Positions 999-63,303 are shown, counted from the first letter of the stretch. The stretch: 64,000 nt of DNA from Octopus vulgaris (GCA_951406725.2 OX597834.1:42470001-42534000); one strand, 5' to 3'. The notes: generated by a model from the sequence alone, not told the origin. Made by a program: numbers and translations.

Positions 999-1340
999 CA
1001 GTAAAAGAGTCGCGGTTTCAAAGCGACGAAAATATTTTGAAAAATTAAATTAAAATGTTGATGTGAATGTAACGGCATCGTGGGTTTTTAAATGGCGAAT
1101 AAACACCTTCGACGCTGCAATTTAGATCCCAAGTTGTTATTCCCGACTCCCAGGAGTTCAAGCGACTGATAGCGCAGGATACTCTTTTAATGGAACTATG
1201 CTCTGTTCGACGATGAAATTTCGAGCTGGGGCCACACCGAGTTATTTTCGATTGAGTGGACAAGAACTTCGGAAATGAAAGGAACTTTCGCCGAAGAATA
1301 AATCACCCGCCTTTGACAAACATGCAGCTGAAGAACTTAC
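999..1340 (+). mobile_element. Decayed copy of the hammerhead-like element family also at 63006-63303
   Basis: 999-1123 aligns by eye to 63119-63244 (GTCGCGGT..AAAGCGACGAAAATATTTTG..AAATTAAA..TTAAATGG..AAACACCTTC.ACGCTGCAATT). The 5' core is degenerate (GTAAAAG). Right boundary is approximate. Confidence 0.65.
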
Positions 1341-1749
1341 AAATGCTTACGCAACATTCTGCTTGTGCATATATGAACACACACACGCGCGCGCACAGAT
1401 ACAAATATATATGTAGTCATAGACACACACAAGAACACATTTATATATATATATATATATATATATATATATATATATATATATATATATATATATATAT
1501 GGCCTGGGCCAATATTGGCCAAAACCTTTCTAAGTTATTCTAAGTTATATACACATCCATAGTATATATATATGTATATATATATATTTGTATATATTTA
1601 TTTATATATATATACACACATCCATAGTATATGTATATATATATACATATACATACATATATACATATATATATATATATATATATATGTATATGTTTAT
1701 ATGCATACACTCACACATACCATACATGGTTATATATTGTTTTATTCTT

Positions 1750-1915
1750 TTACTTGTTTCAGTGGTTCGGTAAAAAAAATGGCGATAGATTTAGAGGACC
1801 AAGTGTAGAAAAACTGCAAAAACCAAGTATTGGGGTCTATTCATTTGACCCCAAAATTCTTCAAGGCATTACACCAGCATGGTCGCTGTCTAATGATTGA
1901 ACAAGTGAAAGATAA
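1750..1915 (+). mobile_element. SINE family B, 3' fragment
   Basis: GGTTCGG..GATAGA..GGGGTC..CCAGCATGGTCGC..TAATGATTGAACAAGT, matching the tail of 34965-35378. Confidence 0.65.
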
Positions 1916-2440
1916 TATATATATATATATATATATATATGTATATGCATCTATGTATATATATATATATATATATATATATATATATGCATCTATGTAT
2001 ATATATATATATATATATGTATGTATATGCATCTATGTATATATATATATATGTATATGGATCTATGTATATATATATATATATATATATATGTATATGC
2101 ATCTATGTATATATATATATATATATATATATGTGTGTGTGTATATATATATATGTATATATATATATATATATATATATATATGTGTGTATATATATAT
2201 GTGTGTATATATATATATGTGTGTATATATATATGTGTGTGTGTATATATATATGTGTATATATATATATATGTGTATATATATATGTGTGTGTGTATAT
2301 ATATGTATATATGTATATGCATCTATGTATGCATGCTTATATGTATGTATGTATGTTTGTATGTATGCATGTATGTATATACGTATGTAAGCATGCATGT
2401 ATGTATGTGTGTATAAATGCATTTACGTGTGTGTGTATGT
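1914..2440. repeat. Compound (TA)n/(TG)n/(TATG)n array with recurring GCATCT anchor
   Basis: Seen directly. Confidence 0.9.
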
Positions 2441-3314
2441 TATTCATTTTCTAATTTAAAGTAAGAAAATGGTTTTAAAAAATAATTTTACACGATTTCC
2501 CTGAACACATTCTGTGTATATATATGTATATATGTAGCTACATAACTGTATATGTATATGTGTGTATATATGTAAAAATATATCTGTATGTGTGTGTAAT
2601 GTATATTGTACTATATATATGTTTATTTATAAGTAACTATATGTAGATATGTATATATTTATGTATTTATTACTATATATATGTATGTATGTATATATAT
2701 ATATATATATATATATATATATATATATATATAGACACCCATACACACATATGTATAAATATGTACAAGTAGATGACTAGATATAAACACACTTAGATAT
2801 ATATCGTCATATATATTAGCATTTATATATATGTATATATATATATATATGTATACATACATGCAGACACACACACACACACACACACATATATATATAT
2901 ATATACTGATACATACATATATATATGTGTATATTTGTATATTTGCATATATATATGTGTTTATATATGTGTATATATATGTGTTTATATATATATATAT
3001 ATATATATATATATATATATATATATATATATATATATATATCAATATACGTACATAAATAGCTATTTTATGTTTGTGTGCATGCATTCTTCTTCACCTG
3101 TATGTATGTGAATGTATTTTTCTCAACGTCTGTATTTCTGTTAATGCAACTTGCACACGGTGTATTTGTCTCAGTCACGTAAATTAGTATTTCTCAGATA
3201 AATTAGCATTTGAACAAATCGAGGACCGCAACCCGATTAATCAGACTTGAATATTACAAAATTTACCGTAGGATAGATTGCAACAATTTTAACACTTCAA
3301 GGTGACGTTTCCTC

Positions 3315-3420
3315 GCAGGCTATAGTAGAAGACACTTGCCCAAGGTGCCACTGGGACTGAACCTGGAACCATATGTGGTTTGTAAGCAAGCTACTTACCA
3401 CACAGCCACTCCTGCGCCTA
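3315..3420 (-). mobile_element. SINE family B, 5' head
   Basis: Reverse complement of AGGCGCAGGAGTGGCTGTGTGGTAAGTAGC...GGCACCTTGGGCAAGTGTCTTCTACTATAGCC. Confidence 0.85.
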
Positions 3421-4214
3421 CACACACACACACACACACACACACACATATATATATATATATGTATGTATTCACTCAAACAAACACGCGCACACATGTT
3501 TCGTTCGCTTCATATTTAAATGCAATGACATACATTCAAAAGCACACAGATTGATGATAAATAGATAAGTATTGAATATTGATGAGCACACTAAAAAAAA
3601 ATAACCCCAGCTGGTGGATGACGTCGTTCTATTGTTAAATTAAAACACATACACACATACACACACACAGAAATATACTCACACAAAATACACGCTTCGA
3701 ATATATCTTTACATACATACATAGATATATATATATACCTTAAATCACATTTCATATTCTGTCTCCTTGATACGCTTCGCTAAACAAACACTGGACGCAG
3801 TACATGCTCACAAGTATGTACATACAGACACGCGCCCAGACACGCATCTGCACGCAAAGTTCACACACTTACTCATGAGTTCTGACATACATATCCTGAC
3901 ATAAACAATACTGGCTTATTAGTACACTCATGCATAAATGCATATATATATATACATATAGGTTCTTTGTAATAAGGGCACACACACACACACACACATA
4001 TATATATATATATATATATATATATATATATATATATATACATAAATAGGTTCTCAGTAGCAAGGGTATATATATATACGCATGTATATATATATATATA
4101 TATATACACGTATGTATATACATTGCTTCTGCTTTTATATGTATGTATAGATTTACGTAAGTAATATTGATAAAAGATGTATAGAAGTATGAATTCATTC
4201 AGCTGTAGGTCTGC

Positions 4215-60672: not shown

Positions 60673-60674
60673 TT

Positions 60675-60915
60675 CAAAAAACGAAATAAGAACGTAACGG
60701 ACGACAATAAAAAGATACGGACAGATGGACGATACAAAGACGGACATGAAAAACCAGGACGGAACATTCGTGGCTTTCTTTCATCAGTCAAACTTCCAAT
60801 TATCATTGCAGTTTCGGCCTGTTACACTTGAGATTGTTCAAAATTGGTAGCCCCCCAAAAGCTATGCTAAGGGCATTACATTTTTGGAAGAAAGCAAGCG
60901 AATATACGGTGGCAA
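60675..60915. mobile_element. Dispersed non-coding repeat, also at 36495-36775
   Basis: See 36495-36775. Confidence 0.75.
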
Positions 60916-61409
60916 ACACCTTAAATATACCTCTGCTTTTCTTTTTCTATCTGTTGTCCGACTACGAGATGCCTAGAGAAATAGAAAGAAGAGAGAGAAA
61001 TAGGGAGAGAGAGGAGCAGGGTTGGAGCGAGAGAGGAGAGAGAGAGAGATAGAAAGAGAGAAAGTGACAGTGAAAGAAAGAAGAGAAGAATGGAAGAAAG
61101 AAATAAAGAGGGAAAGAAATAAAGAATGTTCCTACATGTGCGCGTGTGTTCCTACATGTGTGCGTATGTGTGCTGTGAGAATGGTAAAGAGAAAGGGATC
61201 TAAAACCAGTAGTAATGTTTGAAGAAGAAATTAATGCGTGGATGTGTTAAATGGTTTCTTTATTAACAAAAAAAGCAAAACAAAAAAAAGGGAAACAAAA
61301 CAAAAACAAGAAGAAACGAAATGTAAAAAAAAGTGTTTGGTAAGTTTGAAACTTAATCTGATTGTTGTAGCGTCTTTGGGGAATATAGGAATATCGATAG
61401 GAATATAGG

Positions 61410-62300
61410 ATTACAGGAATAGAGAATACAGGAAAGAATGTGGGGAAGGGAGAGTAGGGATAGTATGCGGGAGAGAGAGAGAGGGAAGAAGAGAGATGGT
61501 ATGTGGGAGAGAGAGAGAGAGTGATGGGAGAGAGAGGAAGAAATAGAGCTAAGAATAGATGAGAAGAAGGAGAGATAGGAAGGAATGAGGAGAAGGAGCA
61601 GGGATAGCATGTGGGAGAGAGAAAGAGAGAGAGAGAGGAAAAGAGATAGAGTGTGGGAAAAAAGTGAGAGAGAGGGAGAGCACAAGTGGTGAGAGAGGGG
61701 AGGGGGGAAACAGGTAGTGAGAAGGAGGGAAATAAAGTTAAGAAAAGATGAAGAGGAGGAGGAGTAGTGATAGGAAGGAATGGAGAGAAAGAGTAGGGAC
61801 AACATGTGGGAGAGAGAGGAAGAGAGATAGGTATGGAAAGAAAGAGAGAGAGGGAGGAATATAGTTAGGAAAAGATGAGGAGGAGAAGTAGGGATAAGCG
61901 AAAAAGAGAGAGAAAGAAAGAGAGAGAGAGTGTATGGGGAAGAGAAGGTAAGAGGAAGGGAGATAAGAATAGGAATCGGTGGAAATTGAGAGAGGAAACA
62001 GGGTTAGGTGGCGCTGGGGTGAGGTAAATAGATGTAACAAATAAATTGAGAGAGTGAGAGAGAAAGGTGAGAGAGAAGACTAGAATTAACGGGAGGGGGA
62101 ATGTGAGAGATGGGTAGAGAGAGAGAGAGAATAGAGAGTGGAGAGGTATACAGAAAGAATAGAGGTGGAGAAAAGGAATCGAGATAAGAAGGAAGATAAG
62201 ACGAGAGAGAGAGAGAAAGATTATATAAAGGATATAGATTGAGATAGAGAGATAGACTGATAGATAGAAAGAGAGAGAGAGAGAGAGAGAAGAGAGCAAC
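61410..62300. repeat. Purine-rich (GA)n mosaic with recurring ATGTGGGAGAGAG unit
   Basis: Seen directly. Confidence 0.9.
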
Positions 62301-63005
62301 GAGTGGTGAGAAAAAGTGTGACTGAGATTTGGTAAGAACAGCTGTGGAGATAAACTGCGCCTAAGATGGCGGTACAAAAGTTGTGATAAAAACAAAAACA
62401 TAGCAACGACAACAACGACAATAAGAAGAAGAGAAGTAGTGATCGCTCAAGCTGCTAAACATAGCAGACTAATCTCCTTTCCCAAGGTCTTATCTAACTG
62501 TATTACAAAAAAGATTTTAAAAATTTCACTGGACGACAACGGAAAATACACACACAAGACATGGCAATGCTCTTCCCTCATCAGTGATCATCCGAAAATC
62601 ATTACGATTTCGAGCCTTTATCTTACACACAGAGAAATACAATAGACTGCTTCGTCTGATTTAACTATTGTCTGAATAGAAAACTGAATGAATGGTGGTC
62701 ACCAGTGGAACGTCTTTGACATAAATCATAACGACATATATCCTAGGGTTAAACAACAGCAAAAATAAATATCATCGGTAACTGCAGTAAAACAACAGTC
62801 ACGAGAAAAACAACAACAATAAAAAAATCAAGGCAAAAACACCATCAAATATAACAATATAAGGATGAAGGGCAATGTCGCCTTCACCAGAATATGATCA
62901 CAGTACGTAAAGACGGACAGAATGCCGCTAAGAATTTTGCCTGACGTGCTAACGACTCTGCCTGCTTACCGACCTAATAATAATAATAATAATAATAATA
63001 ATAAT

Positions 63006-63303
63006 AATTGCAGCGTGGAAGGTGTTTGTAAGCCATTTAAGAAACACACAAAAGCCGTTCGATTCACTTCAACATTTAAGTTTAATTAAGTTTAATCCGT
63101 GCTGCACGCATTTTTTGTCAGTGAACAGGTCGCGGTCTTAAAGCGACGAAAATATTTTGGCAAATTAAACTTAAATGTTGAAGTGAATCGAACGGCTTTT
63201 GTGTGTTTCTTAAATGGCTTACAAACACCTTCCACGCTGCAATTGTTTTCGTTTCAGCACACGATCTCAAATCAAATCACTTGCTATGCAAGTACATCTC
63301 CGT
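63006..63303 (+). mobile_element. Non-autonomous element in (TAA)n with perfect 82 bp inverted partial copy
   Basis: 63006-63087 is the exact reverse complement of 63163-63244; (TAA)n on both sides. Confidence 0.85.
63114..63164 (+). ncRNA. Hammerhead-like motif with G3-C8 swapped core
   Basis: TTTGTCA-GTGAACA-G-GTCGC[GGTCTTAAA]GCGAC-GAAA-ATAT-TT-TGGCAAA. Confidence 0.65.

What the first reader, a model, noticed from the sequence alone, without database searches (positions are those of the whole stretch)
999..63303. Several unrelated short non-coding elements each carry a minimal hammerhead ribozyme fold
Seen: at least six sequence-unrelated families share the order helix I-CUGANGA-helix II-GAAA-short helix III-UH-helix I. 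Sites are 4847(-), 9321(-), 11919(+), 27003(+) with relatives 7249(+) and 54050(-), 49273(-), 53469(+), and 63114(+) with relative 999(+). Most have a self-complementary helix III (ACGCGT, ACGT, ACAGCTGT, AATATT) and one unpaired base after A9. They sit in or beside (TA)n, (TAA)n or (TACA)n and have no ORF. Established: Penelope-like elements and non-LTR retrozymes carry minimal type I hammerheads whose palindromic helix III allows dimeric cleavage. Inference: this is a diverse, high-copy population of non-autonomous ribozyme-bearing retroelements (about one per 7 kb here) that I am not aware has been catalogued in cephalopods.
Basis: partly seen in the sequence, partly recalled or inferred. 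Interest (0 to 1): 0.85.

Follow-up and report, generated by a model that had tools for sequence, protein, structure and literature searches.

The report
Penelope retroelement hammerheads with variant cores
Ten short repeats in this window carry the folded shape of small self-cutting "hammerhead" RNAs; one family is the end of an intact Penelope-type jumping gene and the others are likely passengers of such genes, and two families have unusual catalytic-core letters (G3-C8, A6U) whose cutting activity is untested.

Summary
All ten sites belong to eight repeat families with a minimal type I hammerhead layout. A descriptor finds 5 in the window against 0.07 in shuffles, and 14 in 400 kb elsewhere against 0.33.

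Only five families have CUGANGA. 63114 has a G3-C8 swap; the true core near 53469 lies at 53545 (U3-A8); 7249/54050 have A6U; 999 has lost its core.

They are not all non-autonomous. The 7249 family forms both pseudo-LTRs of an intact 1119-aa RT + GIY-YIG Penelope-like element. The other families have no partner found. 11919 is a tRNA-headed SINE and 63114 a fixed-ended ~205-nt element; both show Penelope-type inverted pairs with one-sided tails. 4847 and 53469 are ORF-less ~0.6-kb partial tandems.

Penelope minimal hammerheads are published, including in other molluscs. What looks new is the variant cores at high copy number and a likely Penelope-mobilised tRNA SINE. Cleavage and expression are untested.

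The parts
999..1122 (+). Family E relative, 5'-truncated; core position 1001-1007 reads GTAAAAG (G5, C8 and A9 lost); helix II, GAAA (1028) and AATATT remain; not a competent hammerhead
4686..4999 (-). Family A copy (ORF-less ~0.6-kb unit); core CUGAAGA from 4904, GAAA 4862, palindrome ACGCGT, H17=A at 4853, 6-bp helix I; passes the descriptor
4994..5085 (+). Inverted 3' piece of family A, head-to-head with the copy above
7182..7368 (+). Family H: 5'-truncated 3' pseudo-LTR of an autonomous Neptune-type PLE (174/187 identical to L399); core CUGUCGA at 7254 (A6U), GAAA 7274, H17 7281; this copy has G10.1A and a broken helix I pair
9289..9485 (-). Family C copy; core CUGAAGA from 9403, U.U at 10.1/11.1, long helix II, GAAA 9338, H17 9327; palindrome broken here (family majority ACGATCGT)
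11786..11919 (-). Family B (tRNA-headed SINE) left arm, truncated at the core (11918), carries the 3' tail extension
11909..12020 (+). Family B right arm, core 11923, GAAA 11951, H17 11958, no tail; the two arms are predicted to fold into one long hairpin that hides both hammerheads
26929..27136 (+). Family D copy (82% identical to the H pseudo-LTR); canonical core CUGAUGA 27007, GAAA 27026, H17=U 27033; weak helices; passes the descriptor
49222..49405 (-). Family F copy, old (relatives 71-90% identical); core CUGACGA from 49387, ~90-nt helix II domain decayed, GAAA 49289, ACAGCTGT, H17 49278
49322..49462 (+). Inverted, decayed family F partner
53084..53197 (+). 3' fragment of the preceding family G unit (partial tandem, period 562)
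53198..53775 (+). Full family G unit, longest ATG ORF 34 aa; core UUGACAA at 53545 (U3-A8), A.A at 10.1/11.1, GAAA 53580, ACGCGT, H17=C 53589; passes the relaxed descriptor
53960..54133 (-). Family H relative (142/159 identical to the L399 pseudo-LTR); core CUGUGGA from 54082 (A6U), GAAA 54062, H17 54055; one helix II pair broken
63000..63087 (-). Family E inverted left arm, without hammerhead and without tail
63098..63305 (+). Family E full ~205-nt element; core GUGAACA at 63121 (G3-C8 swap), extra G, 5-bp helix II with G10.1-C11.1, GAAA 63148, AATATT, H17=U 63157, 7-bp helix I

Best explanation
The ten sites are copies of minimal hammerhead motifs from the 3' ends (pseudo-LTRs) of Penelope-like retroelements: one family is the end of an intact autonomous element, and the others are likely non-coding passengers copied by such elements.

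SHOWN: family H sits in both pseudo-LTRs of an element with a 1119-aa RT + GIY-YIG frame. Family B is a tRNA-like head + (AAT)n linker + hammerhead tail. Family E is a ~205-nt fixed-ended element with a G3-C8 core. A and G are ORF-less ~0.6-kb units in partial tandems. B and E occur as head-to-head pairs in which only one arm carries a 3' extension.

INFERRED: a Penelope RT/endonuclease binds the 3' RNA, nicks AT-rich or (TA)n DNA and starts reverse transcription at one of two internal sites, which gives the one-sided tail; frequent truncation and inversion give the solo and head-to-head copies. The hammerhead likely cannot close helix III alone and would cut slowly as a dimer through its palindrome, or when held by the element's protein, to trim multimeric or read-through transcripts. 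Most genomic copies, including most in this window, are likely dead on arrival.
For: Descriptor enrichment.

PLE link for H: RT/EN upstream in sense in 4 of 25 H loci, 3 independent; H motif 348-899 nt behind the EN in 27 of 30 EN-selected loci; 9 of 9 long-frame regions end in H, 2 have a direct upstream copy and 1 an inverted one; L399 frame has RVT_1 above cut-off and a weak GIY-YIG match plus a CX4CxxC linker, the Neptune/Nematis feature in PMC8557442.

PLE signatures in ORF-less families: inverted upstream copies in B 16/30, E 22/24, F 13/24, A 9/24, C 8/25; one-sided tail in 16 of 18 B pair rows and 27 of 33 E pair rows, with no E row long on both sides, matching the 30-40-bp one-sided tail of PMC8557442 Fig. 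2 and its RT-initiation origin in PMC11167929.

Selection on the fold: the homologous families A and G differ by two-sided changes at three helix I pairs (AU/GC, CG/UA, GU/AU) and at 3-8 (CG/UA). D and H differ two-sidedly at helix I pair 4 (GU/CG). Within-family variation concentrates at N7 in D, F, G and H and at H17 in H. Extra base, G10.1-C11.1, palindrome and close opposite-strand pairs match the features of PMC4209133.
Against: No autonomous partner was found for A, B, C, D, E, F or G. Three EN searches tied only H (and a ninth family absent from the window) to an ORF, and 0 of 30 loci of a third EN type had F within 1.5 kb. Tail asymmetry was not seen for A, C or F (their models may stop short). 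D, G and H rarely have inverted copies (1/25, 1/16, 1/25). The E inversion rate is inflated because the query held part of the inverted arm. Cleavage is untested; H17=U (B, D, E), A6U (H) and 10.1/11.1 mismatches (C, G) all point to slow cutting. In the one reconstituted PLE the hammerhead was not needed for insertion in vitro and no RNA-seq ends were found at its site. Loci are the best matches to the window copies, so intactness counts are biased upward.
Confidence: 0.8

Rival explanations
1. All eight families are simply 5'-truncated ends of autonomous PLEs whose long copies I did not sample; none is a self-standing non-autonomous element.
For: True for H. D is 82% identical to the H pseudo-LTR, and two D copies run further 5' into an AC/CT-rich stretch like H's UTR. 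PMC4209133 reads most solo min-HHRs as truncated PLEs.
Against: B begins in a tRNA-like head in 15 of 30 loci. E has a fixed 5' end with unrelated flanks: no long 5' extension in 24 + 13 loci, and loose ends at 63112-63113 in 67-217 contigs per run with about 0.5 agreement. A and G partial tandems have periods of 562-687 nt with no ORF over 48 aa.
Confidence: 0.12
2. The motifs are PLE-derived, but in the variant-core families (A6U, G3-C8, mismatched 10.1/11.1) they no longer cut; they are kept as a structure the PLE protein recognises or are carried along passively.
For: A6C gives low activity (PMC3088659 section 8). C3G/G8C only partly rescues, and hammerhead mutants still insert in vitro (PMC11167929). 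Naiads spread without canonical hammerheads (PMC8557442).
Against: The 3-8 pair is Watson-Crick in three forms (CG, UA, GC) across families, and UG, A9, GAAA and UH are kept; this is what catalysis requires rather than a generic hairpin. A6U is fixed in 25 of 25 H copies and in both pseudo-LTRs of the intact element.
Confidence: 0.35
3. These are tandem non-LTR retrozymes that amplify through circular RNAs, as in coral, mussel and axolotl.
For: A and G have ORF-less more-than-unit copies. A 2026 preprint derives animal retrozymes from PLE pseudo-LTRs.
Against: No locus had two full hammerheads in tandem at unit spacing for A, B, D or G within 1.5 kb, apart from one G case at +653. Published retrozymes mostly carry canonical type I motifs in 220-390-bp tandem repeats. 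No circular RNA evidence is available here.
Confidence: 0.15
4. E is a MITE (palindromic DNA transposon) and B an ordinary LINE-dependent SINE; their hammerhead look is inherited baggage or chance.
For: E often forms near-perfect inverted repeats. B has a standard tRNA-like head.
Against: E arms have variable junctions and unequal ends, and solo arms are common. B has no poly(A) or short-repeat 3' end (2/30) and shows inversion plus a one-sided tail. Chance is excluded.
Confidence: 0.06

Closest known systems
Minimal type I hammerheads (min-HHRs) in PLE pseudo-LTRs, Cervera & de la Pena 2014, PMC4209133 (read: parts 1-2 of 4 of the text; supplement file 2 part 2 of 3; supplement keyword search; file 1 not searchable)
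   Same: Layout, extra base after A9, G10.1-C11.1, palindromic 15.2-16.2, H17 often U, the U3-A8 variant, mostly solo copies, opposite-strand pairs 100-700 bp apart; reported in Lottia and Crassostrea.
   Different: No cephalopod, G3-C8 or A6U entry in the parts I read. Here helix II can be 58-93 nt and 10.1/11.1 can be mismatched.
Neptune/Nematis-type EN+ Penelope-like elements (PMC8557442, passages read)
   Same: pLTR-ORF-pLTR layout, RT then CX2-5CxxC then GIY-YIG, (TA)n targets, inverted 5'-truncated copies, one-sided tails. PLEs are known and recently active in octopus (PMC13282606, part 1 of 3 and passages).
   Different: The intact element here carries an A6U hammerhead core. Clade assigned from the linker motif only; no tree was built.
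Schistosoma SM-alpha / Sj-alpha hammerhead SINE-like repeats (seen only as described in the review PMC6765202, passages)
   Same: A Pol III-type promoter combined with a type I hammerhead in a non-coding retroposon.
   Different: Those are tandem repeats liberated by the ribozyme. Family B is a dispersed head-linker-tail SINE with a minimal motif and PLE-type inversion and tail signatures.
Animal non-LTR retrozymes (PMC7229834 passages; bioRxiv 10.64898/2026.07.22.740005 part 1 of 5 and passages)
   Same: ORF-less hammerhead-bearing units proposed to derive from PLE pseudo-LTRs.
   Different: Retrozymes are defined by tandem arrays and circular RNAs. Families A and G show only partial tandems of ~0.6 kb with minimal motifs.
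Small hammerhead variants associated with PLEs, Lunse, Weinberg & Breaker (not held; only its title seen in a reference list)
   Same: By its title: PLE-associated small variants that cleave as dimers.
   Different: Could not be compared. It may already list cephalopod sequences or these core variants.

Membership tests
Minimal type I hammerhead (PLE type) | Core N3-U-G-A-N-N8-A with a Watson-Crick 3-8 pair, GAAA and UH | tested here: met
   Core intact in A 20/24, B 28/30, C 23/25, D 21/25, E 22/24 (G-C), G 13/16 (U-A), F 6/24 (old family)
Minimal type I hammerhead (PLE type) | A at position 6 | tested here: not met
   Met in seven families; family H has U6 in 25 of 25 copies, so H is filed as a variant
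Minimal type I hammerhead (PLE type) | Helix I and helix II around the core, palindromic minimal helix III | tested here: met
   Helix I of 4 bp or more: A 21/24, C 20/25, D 24/25, E 23/24, G 13/16, H 20/25, B 15/30, F 7/24; palindrome intact 8/16 (G) to 24/25 (D); enrichment
Minimal type I hammerhead (PLE type) | G10.1-C11.1 pair | tested here: inconclusive
   Present in A, B, D, E, H; C has U.U, G has A.A or C.A before a G-C pair, F has U-A; U.U is a known natural variant
Minimal type I hammerhead (PLE type) | Self-cleavage 3' of H17, as a dimer or protein-assisted | not testable with these tools
   Needs an in vitro assay; no raw-read RNA run was available
Autonomous EN+ PLE (family H) | Single ORF with RT and C-terminal GIY-YIG | tested here: met
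   L399 1119-aa frame: RVT_1 E=1.4e-7 above cut-off; GIY-YIG E=0.007 below cut-off; YIG motif present
Autonomous EN+ PLE (family H) | Pseudo-LTRs with a hammerhead on both sides of the ORF | tested here: met
   L399 and L404, 2 of 9 regions chosen for long frames
Neptune clade | CX2-5CxxC linker between RT and EN | tested here: met
   CSRPRCRTC in L276 and L399; shared with Nematis
Neptune clade | Placement in an RT phylogeny | not tested
   No named reference PLE proteins were in hand
tRNA-derived SINE (family B) | 5' head with A and B boxes at tRNA spacing, similar to a tRNA | tested here: met
   A box within 1 mismatch 14/15 (exact 6), B box 14/15 (exact 9), box patterns recalled; best of 25 genomic tRNAs is Arg(TCG), z=7.1, above all 200 shuffles; no T4 run in the L017 body. 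ARAGORN 0 of 15 loci and Rfam no tRNA match
tRNA-derived SINE (family B) | 3' end shared with an identified autonomous partner | tested here: inconclusive
   The B model hit none of 60 loci of two PLE families and hit a third set 3 times without colinearity
tRNA-derived SINE (family B) | Pol III transcription | not testable with these tools
   No raw RNA reads
Non-autonomous PLE derivative (A, B, E, G) | PLE integration signatures: inverted truncated copy, one-sided tail, partial tandem | tested here: met
   B and E: inversion and tail; A: inversion and partial tandem; G: partial tandem; tail not seen for A, C, F
Non-LTR retrozyme | Tandem array with a full hammerhead in consecutive units | tested here: not met
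   Direct second hammerheads within 1.5 kb are rare: A 0, B 0, D 0, G 1, E 1, F 1, H 1, C 4; only sampled loci were examined
Non-LTR retrozyme | Circular RNA intermediates | not testable with these tools
   Contigs only

The most novel reading that the evidence does not exclude
This genome holds a SINE class mobilised by Penelope-like elements rather than LINEs (tRNA promoter + PLE hammerhead tail, roughly 20,000-100,000 pieces). It also holds natural, high-copy hammerheads with a G3-C8 core and with A6U, the latter inside an intact autonomous element, and both cut RNA. Descriptors fixed on CUGANGA would then miss much of the animal ribozyme inventory: 10 of 14 motifs in my 400-kb sample.
Probability: 0.4. 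Interest if true: 0.68.

Novelty: new variant of a known kind. Interest (0 to 1): 0.5.

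Why it matters
The role of hammerheads in Penelope-like elements is an open question: they are kept across animals, yet were dispensable for insertion in the one in vitro system (PMC11167929). This genome offers a natural mutational series: C3-G8, U3-A8, G3-C8, A6U and mismatched 10.1/11.1. 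It includes an intact element and short passengers, so one can ask directly whether cleavage rate matters for copy number. A tRNA SINE that depends on a PLE would widen the SINE-LINE rule and give a ~290-nt cargo for mapping what a PLE protein needs in trans. The estimate of about 98,000 descriptor-perfect motifs (54,000-164,000) would make this a very ribozyme-rich genome. The basic phenomenon, however, is already known.

Tried and rejected
Rfam: the E-value scan of the window showed only TA-repeat miRNA look-alikes in the 150 rows displayed of 640; nothing at gathering score; no hammerhead or tRNA on L017, L003 or 63095-63180. The repeat finder was swamped by microsatellites. ARAGORN found no tRNA gene in 15 B loci.

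Expression: no RNA holder listed. Both read-layings used contigs only, so starts, ends and levels could not be seen.

Partner searches: a GIY-YIG fragment beside family F in L148 looked like its partner, but 0 of 30 loci of that EN had F downstream within 1.5 kb. EN or RT fragments beside A (L036), C (L077) and D (L104) were lone cases: downstream, antisense or interrupted. The 7-kb match between two A loci was a segmental duplicate, not a long element. Six longer regions around D, C, G and A copies showed no PLE ORF. The 12 searches of the own genome are spent, so partners for B and E stay open.

53469 as a core was rejected: no helix I or II partner. MITE origin for E was rejected. Monomer and dimer energies show that closing helix III costs about 5 kcal/mol in A and E, but a nearest-neighbour model cannot score the active fold, so I give it little weight. 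No R-scape-type covariation test was run; within-family changes are mostly decay.

Not held: Lunse et al. and Przybilski & Hammann. The Ohshima & Okada octopus SINE paper was seen only as a reference, so family B may be one of its SINEs. Cervera supplement file 1 was not searchable, and bioRxiv supplements are closed.

Full report
SETTING. The window is G000:C21:42470001-42534000 in a 2.8-Gb, 227-contig assembly, 35% GC and dense in microsatellites.

CHECK OF THE SITES. I searched the genome with eight of the sites and aligned the best 25-30 loci of each. I call the families A (4847), B (11919), C (9321), D (27003), E (63114, 999), F (49273), G (53469) and H (7249, 54050). Loci in which the anchor motif was not found near the centre were dropped before counting: A 24 of 25, E 24 of 25, F 24 of 25, G 16 of 25 kept, the others all kept. 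Every family majority has helix I, a seven-base core, helix II, GAAA, a palindrome from A15.1 to U16.1, H17 and the helix I partner. Five families have CUGANGA. E has GUGAACA: G3-C8 in 22 of 24 copies, with a 7-bp helix I, an extra base and G10.1-C11.1. G has UUGAYAA (U3-A8 in 15 of 16) at 53545, not at 53469. H has U at position 6 in 25 of 25. The copy at 999 has lost G5, C8 and A9.

CHANCE. A descriptor demanding helix I of at least 4 bp, helix II of at least 3 bp and a perfect palindrome gave 3 canonical and 5 relaxed hits in the window; 30 block-dinucleotide shuffles gave 0 and a mean of 0.07, and the reversed window 0. In 400 kb taken independently it gave 4 and 14; 6 shuffles gave 0 and a mean of 0.33. 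With positions 3, 6 and 8 left free and stricter helices, the 400 kb gave 6 hits, 5 with a Watson-Crick 3-8 pair and one U.G, against 0 reversed. Scaling 14 hits gives about 98,000 motifs (Poisson 54,000-164,000); 40 family pieces give about 280,000 (200,000-380,000), counting pieces, not elements.

SELECTION ON THE FOLD. A and G are homologous, as are D and H. Between A and G three helix I pairs and the 3-8 pair change on both sides and stay paired; between D and H helix I pair 4 does. A further PLE family outside the window shows AU/UA exchange in helix I between subfamilies. These are comparisons of majorities, not a statistical covariation test.

FAMILY H IS AN AUTONOMOUS ELEMENT'S END. 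Four of 25 H loci had RT/GIY-YIG coding sequence upstream in sense; two of them are a duplicate pair. Searching with that endonuclease returned 15,067 first-look candidates, and 27 of 30 fetched loci had the H motif 348-899 nt downstream, one being the query's own locus. Of nine regions chosen for long frames, all ended in H; L399 and L404 had a second direct copy upstream. L399 reads pseudo-LTR, 1119-aa frame, pseudo-LTR, with RVT_1 above cut-off, a weak GIY-YIG match and a CX4CxxC linker. Both its hammerheads have A6U. The window copies are 93% (7249) and 89% (54050) identical to it over the aligned part; D is 82%.

FAMILY B IS A tRNA-HEADED SINE WITH PLE SIGNATURES. In 15 of 30 loci a ~75-nt head lies upstream in sense, joined by a variable (AAT)n linker. 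It has A and B boxes (14 of 15 within one mismatch each) and aligns best to a genomic tRNA-Arg(TCG), z=7.1; only 25 distinct tRNAs of six amino acids were tested, so the parent is not fixed. ARAGORN and Rfam do not call it a tRNA. Sixteen of 30 loci have an inverted copy upstream. In 16 of 18 pair rows the two 3' ends differ by at least 17 model positions, one arm carrying a ~30-nt extension; contigs of a public run also break off at two clusters about 30 nt apart. PMC8557442 describes inverted truncated copies and a one-sided 30-40-bp tail for PLEs, and PMC11167929 ties the tail to two RT start sites and calls it unique to PLEs. The partner was not found. The window's B site is two headless arms, predicted to form one long hairpin that hides both motifs.

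FAMILY E. It starts about 20 nt before the core and ends about 205 nt later. No longer 5' sequence was shared in 24 + 13 loci. In four contig sets (four organism labels, three studies) loose ends cluster at 63112-63113 with mixed flanks, and no alternative letter reached 5% at G3 or C8 among pieces at least 80% alike. In 27 of 33 pair rows one arm is full and the other at least 26 positions shorter; none is full on both sides. PMC3088659 section 8 lists U3-A8, A6C and U10.1.U11.1 as natural variants and does not mention G3-C8 in the text I read. C3G/G8C is known as an engineered partial rescue. Earlier unchecked notes of this scan report G3-C8 cores with an extra base beside PLEs in another genome; I did not test them.

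FAMILIES A, G, C, D, F. A and G occur as a 3' fragment followed by a full unit, with periods of 562 and 574 (G) and 623 and 687 (A; a third case 890); longest ATG ORFs were 34 and 48 aa. They are best read as ORF-less PLE derivatives, not tandem retrozymes. C and F show head-to-head pairs (8/25, 13/24); D shares a common 5' start in most copies. Their status is open.

MECHANISM. Shown: anatomy, copy structure and the PLE link for H. Inferred from PMC4209133 and PMC11167929: PLE protein copies these RNAs by target-primed reverse transcription into AT-rich DNA; the motif cuts weakly as a dimer or with protein help. Against a necessary role: hammerhead mutants still inserted in vitro, and no RNA-seq ends were seen in the anole. 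Activity and expression here are untested.

PRIOR ART. Min-HHRs are reported across metazoans, including two molluscs; octopus PLEs are known and recently active. Searches for hammerhead + octopus, G3-C8 and related terms, PLE-dependent SINEs and octopus SINE names returned no description of these families. I saw only listings for most of those hits, the library lacks subscription papers, and Lunse et al. and Ohshima & Okada could not be read.

VERDICT. A real feature of a known kind, with variant cores and a probable PLE-dependent SINE. Interest 0.5.

Noticed in passing
L230-L259, L407 (G000:C28:6381000-6389500): A second, apparently young Neptune-type PLE family: many 753-aa frames with identical EN scores and many head-to-head pairs. 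It carries a U3-A8 hammerhead 630-740 nt after the EN (19 of 30, plus 6 variant copies); one subfamily reads GAAAA-CCGG-UU, an extra A or a shifted register.
   Followed up: partly
L310:9480-9960 (-), L327:8030-8510 (-): Two independent copies of an element with long inverted arms around a central U3-A8 hammerhead whose helix I and palindrome resemble family A's; the same junction in both suggests a fixed rod-like RNA.
   Followed up: no
flanks of L033, L065, L070, L090, L170, L173, L264, L273, L300, L302, L312, L326, L329, L383: About ten more hammerhead-like motif types with other palindromes (ACATATGT, ACCGGT, ACGCGCGT, ACACGTGT, ACGTACGT, AATT), several with a 1x1 mismatch at 10.1/11.1.
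   Followed up: no
L360-L389: An older PLE-like GIY-YIG family with 16,874 first-look candidates, mostly broken; its 3' end and hammerhead were not identified (one candidate in L383, ~1.4 kb downstream).
   Followed up: partly
family B tail, e.g. window 11926-12000 (+): An ATG inside the core opens a short frame through helix II, as the ORF start does in the anole Poseidon element; a possible hint that B's tail came from a Poseidon-type element. Read by eye only.
   Followed up: no
window 36626 (-) and 60787 (-): Two related sequences starting CUGAYGA-AAGAAAGCCACGAAUG; possibly decayed members of another family; they fail the descriptor.
   Followed up: no
window 53780-53895 (+): Piece of another very abundant short repeat that recurs next to many fetched loci, likely a common SINE.
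   Followed up: no
L225/L226; L186/L191: Multi-kb duplicated segments between or within contigs; L225/L226 holds a long tandem array.
   Followed up: no
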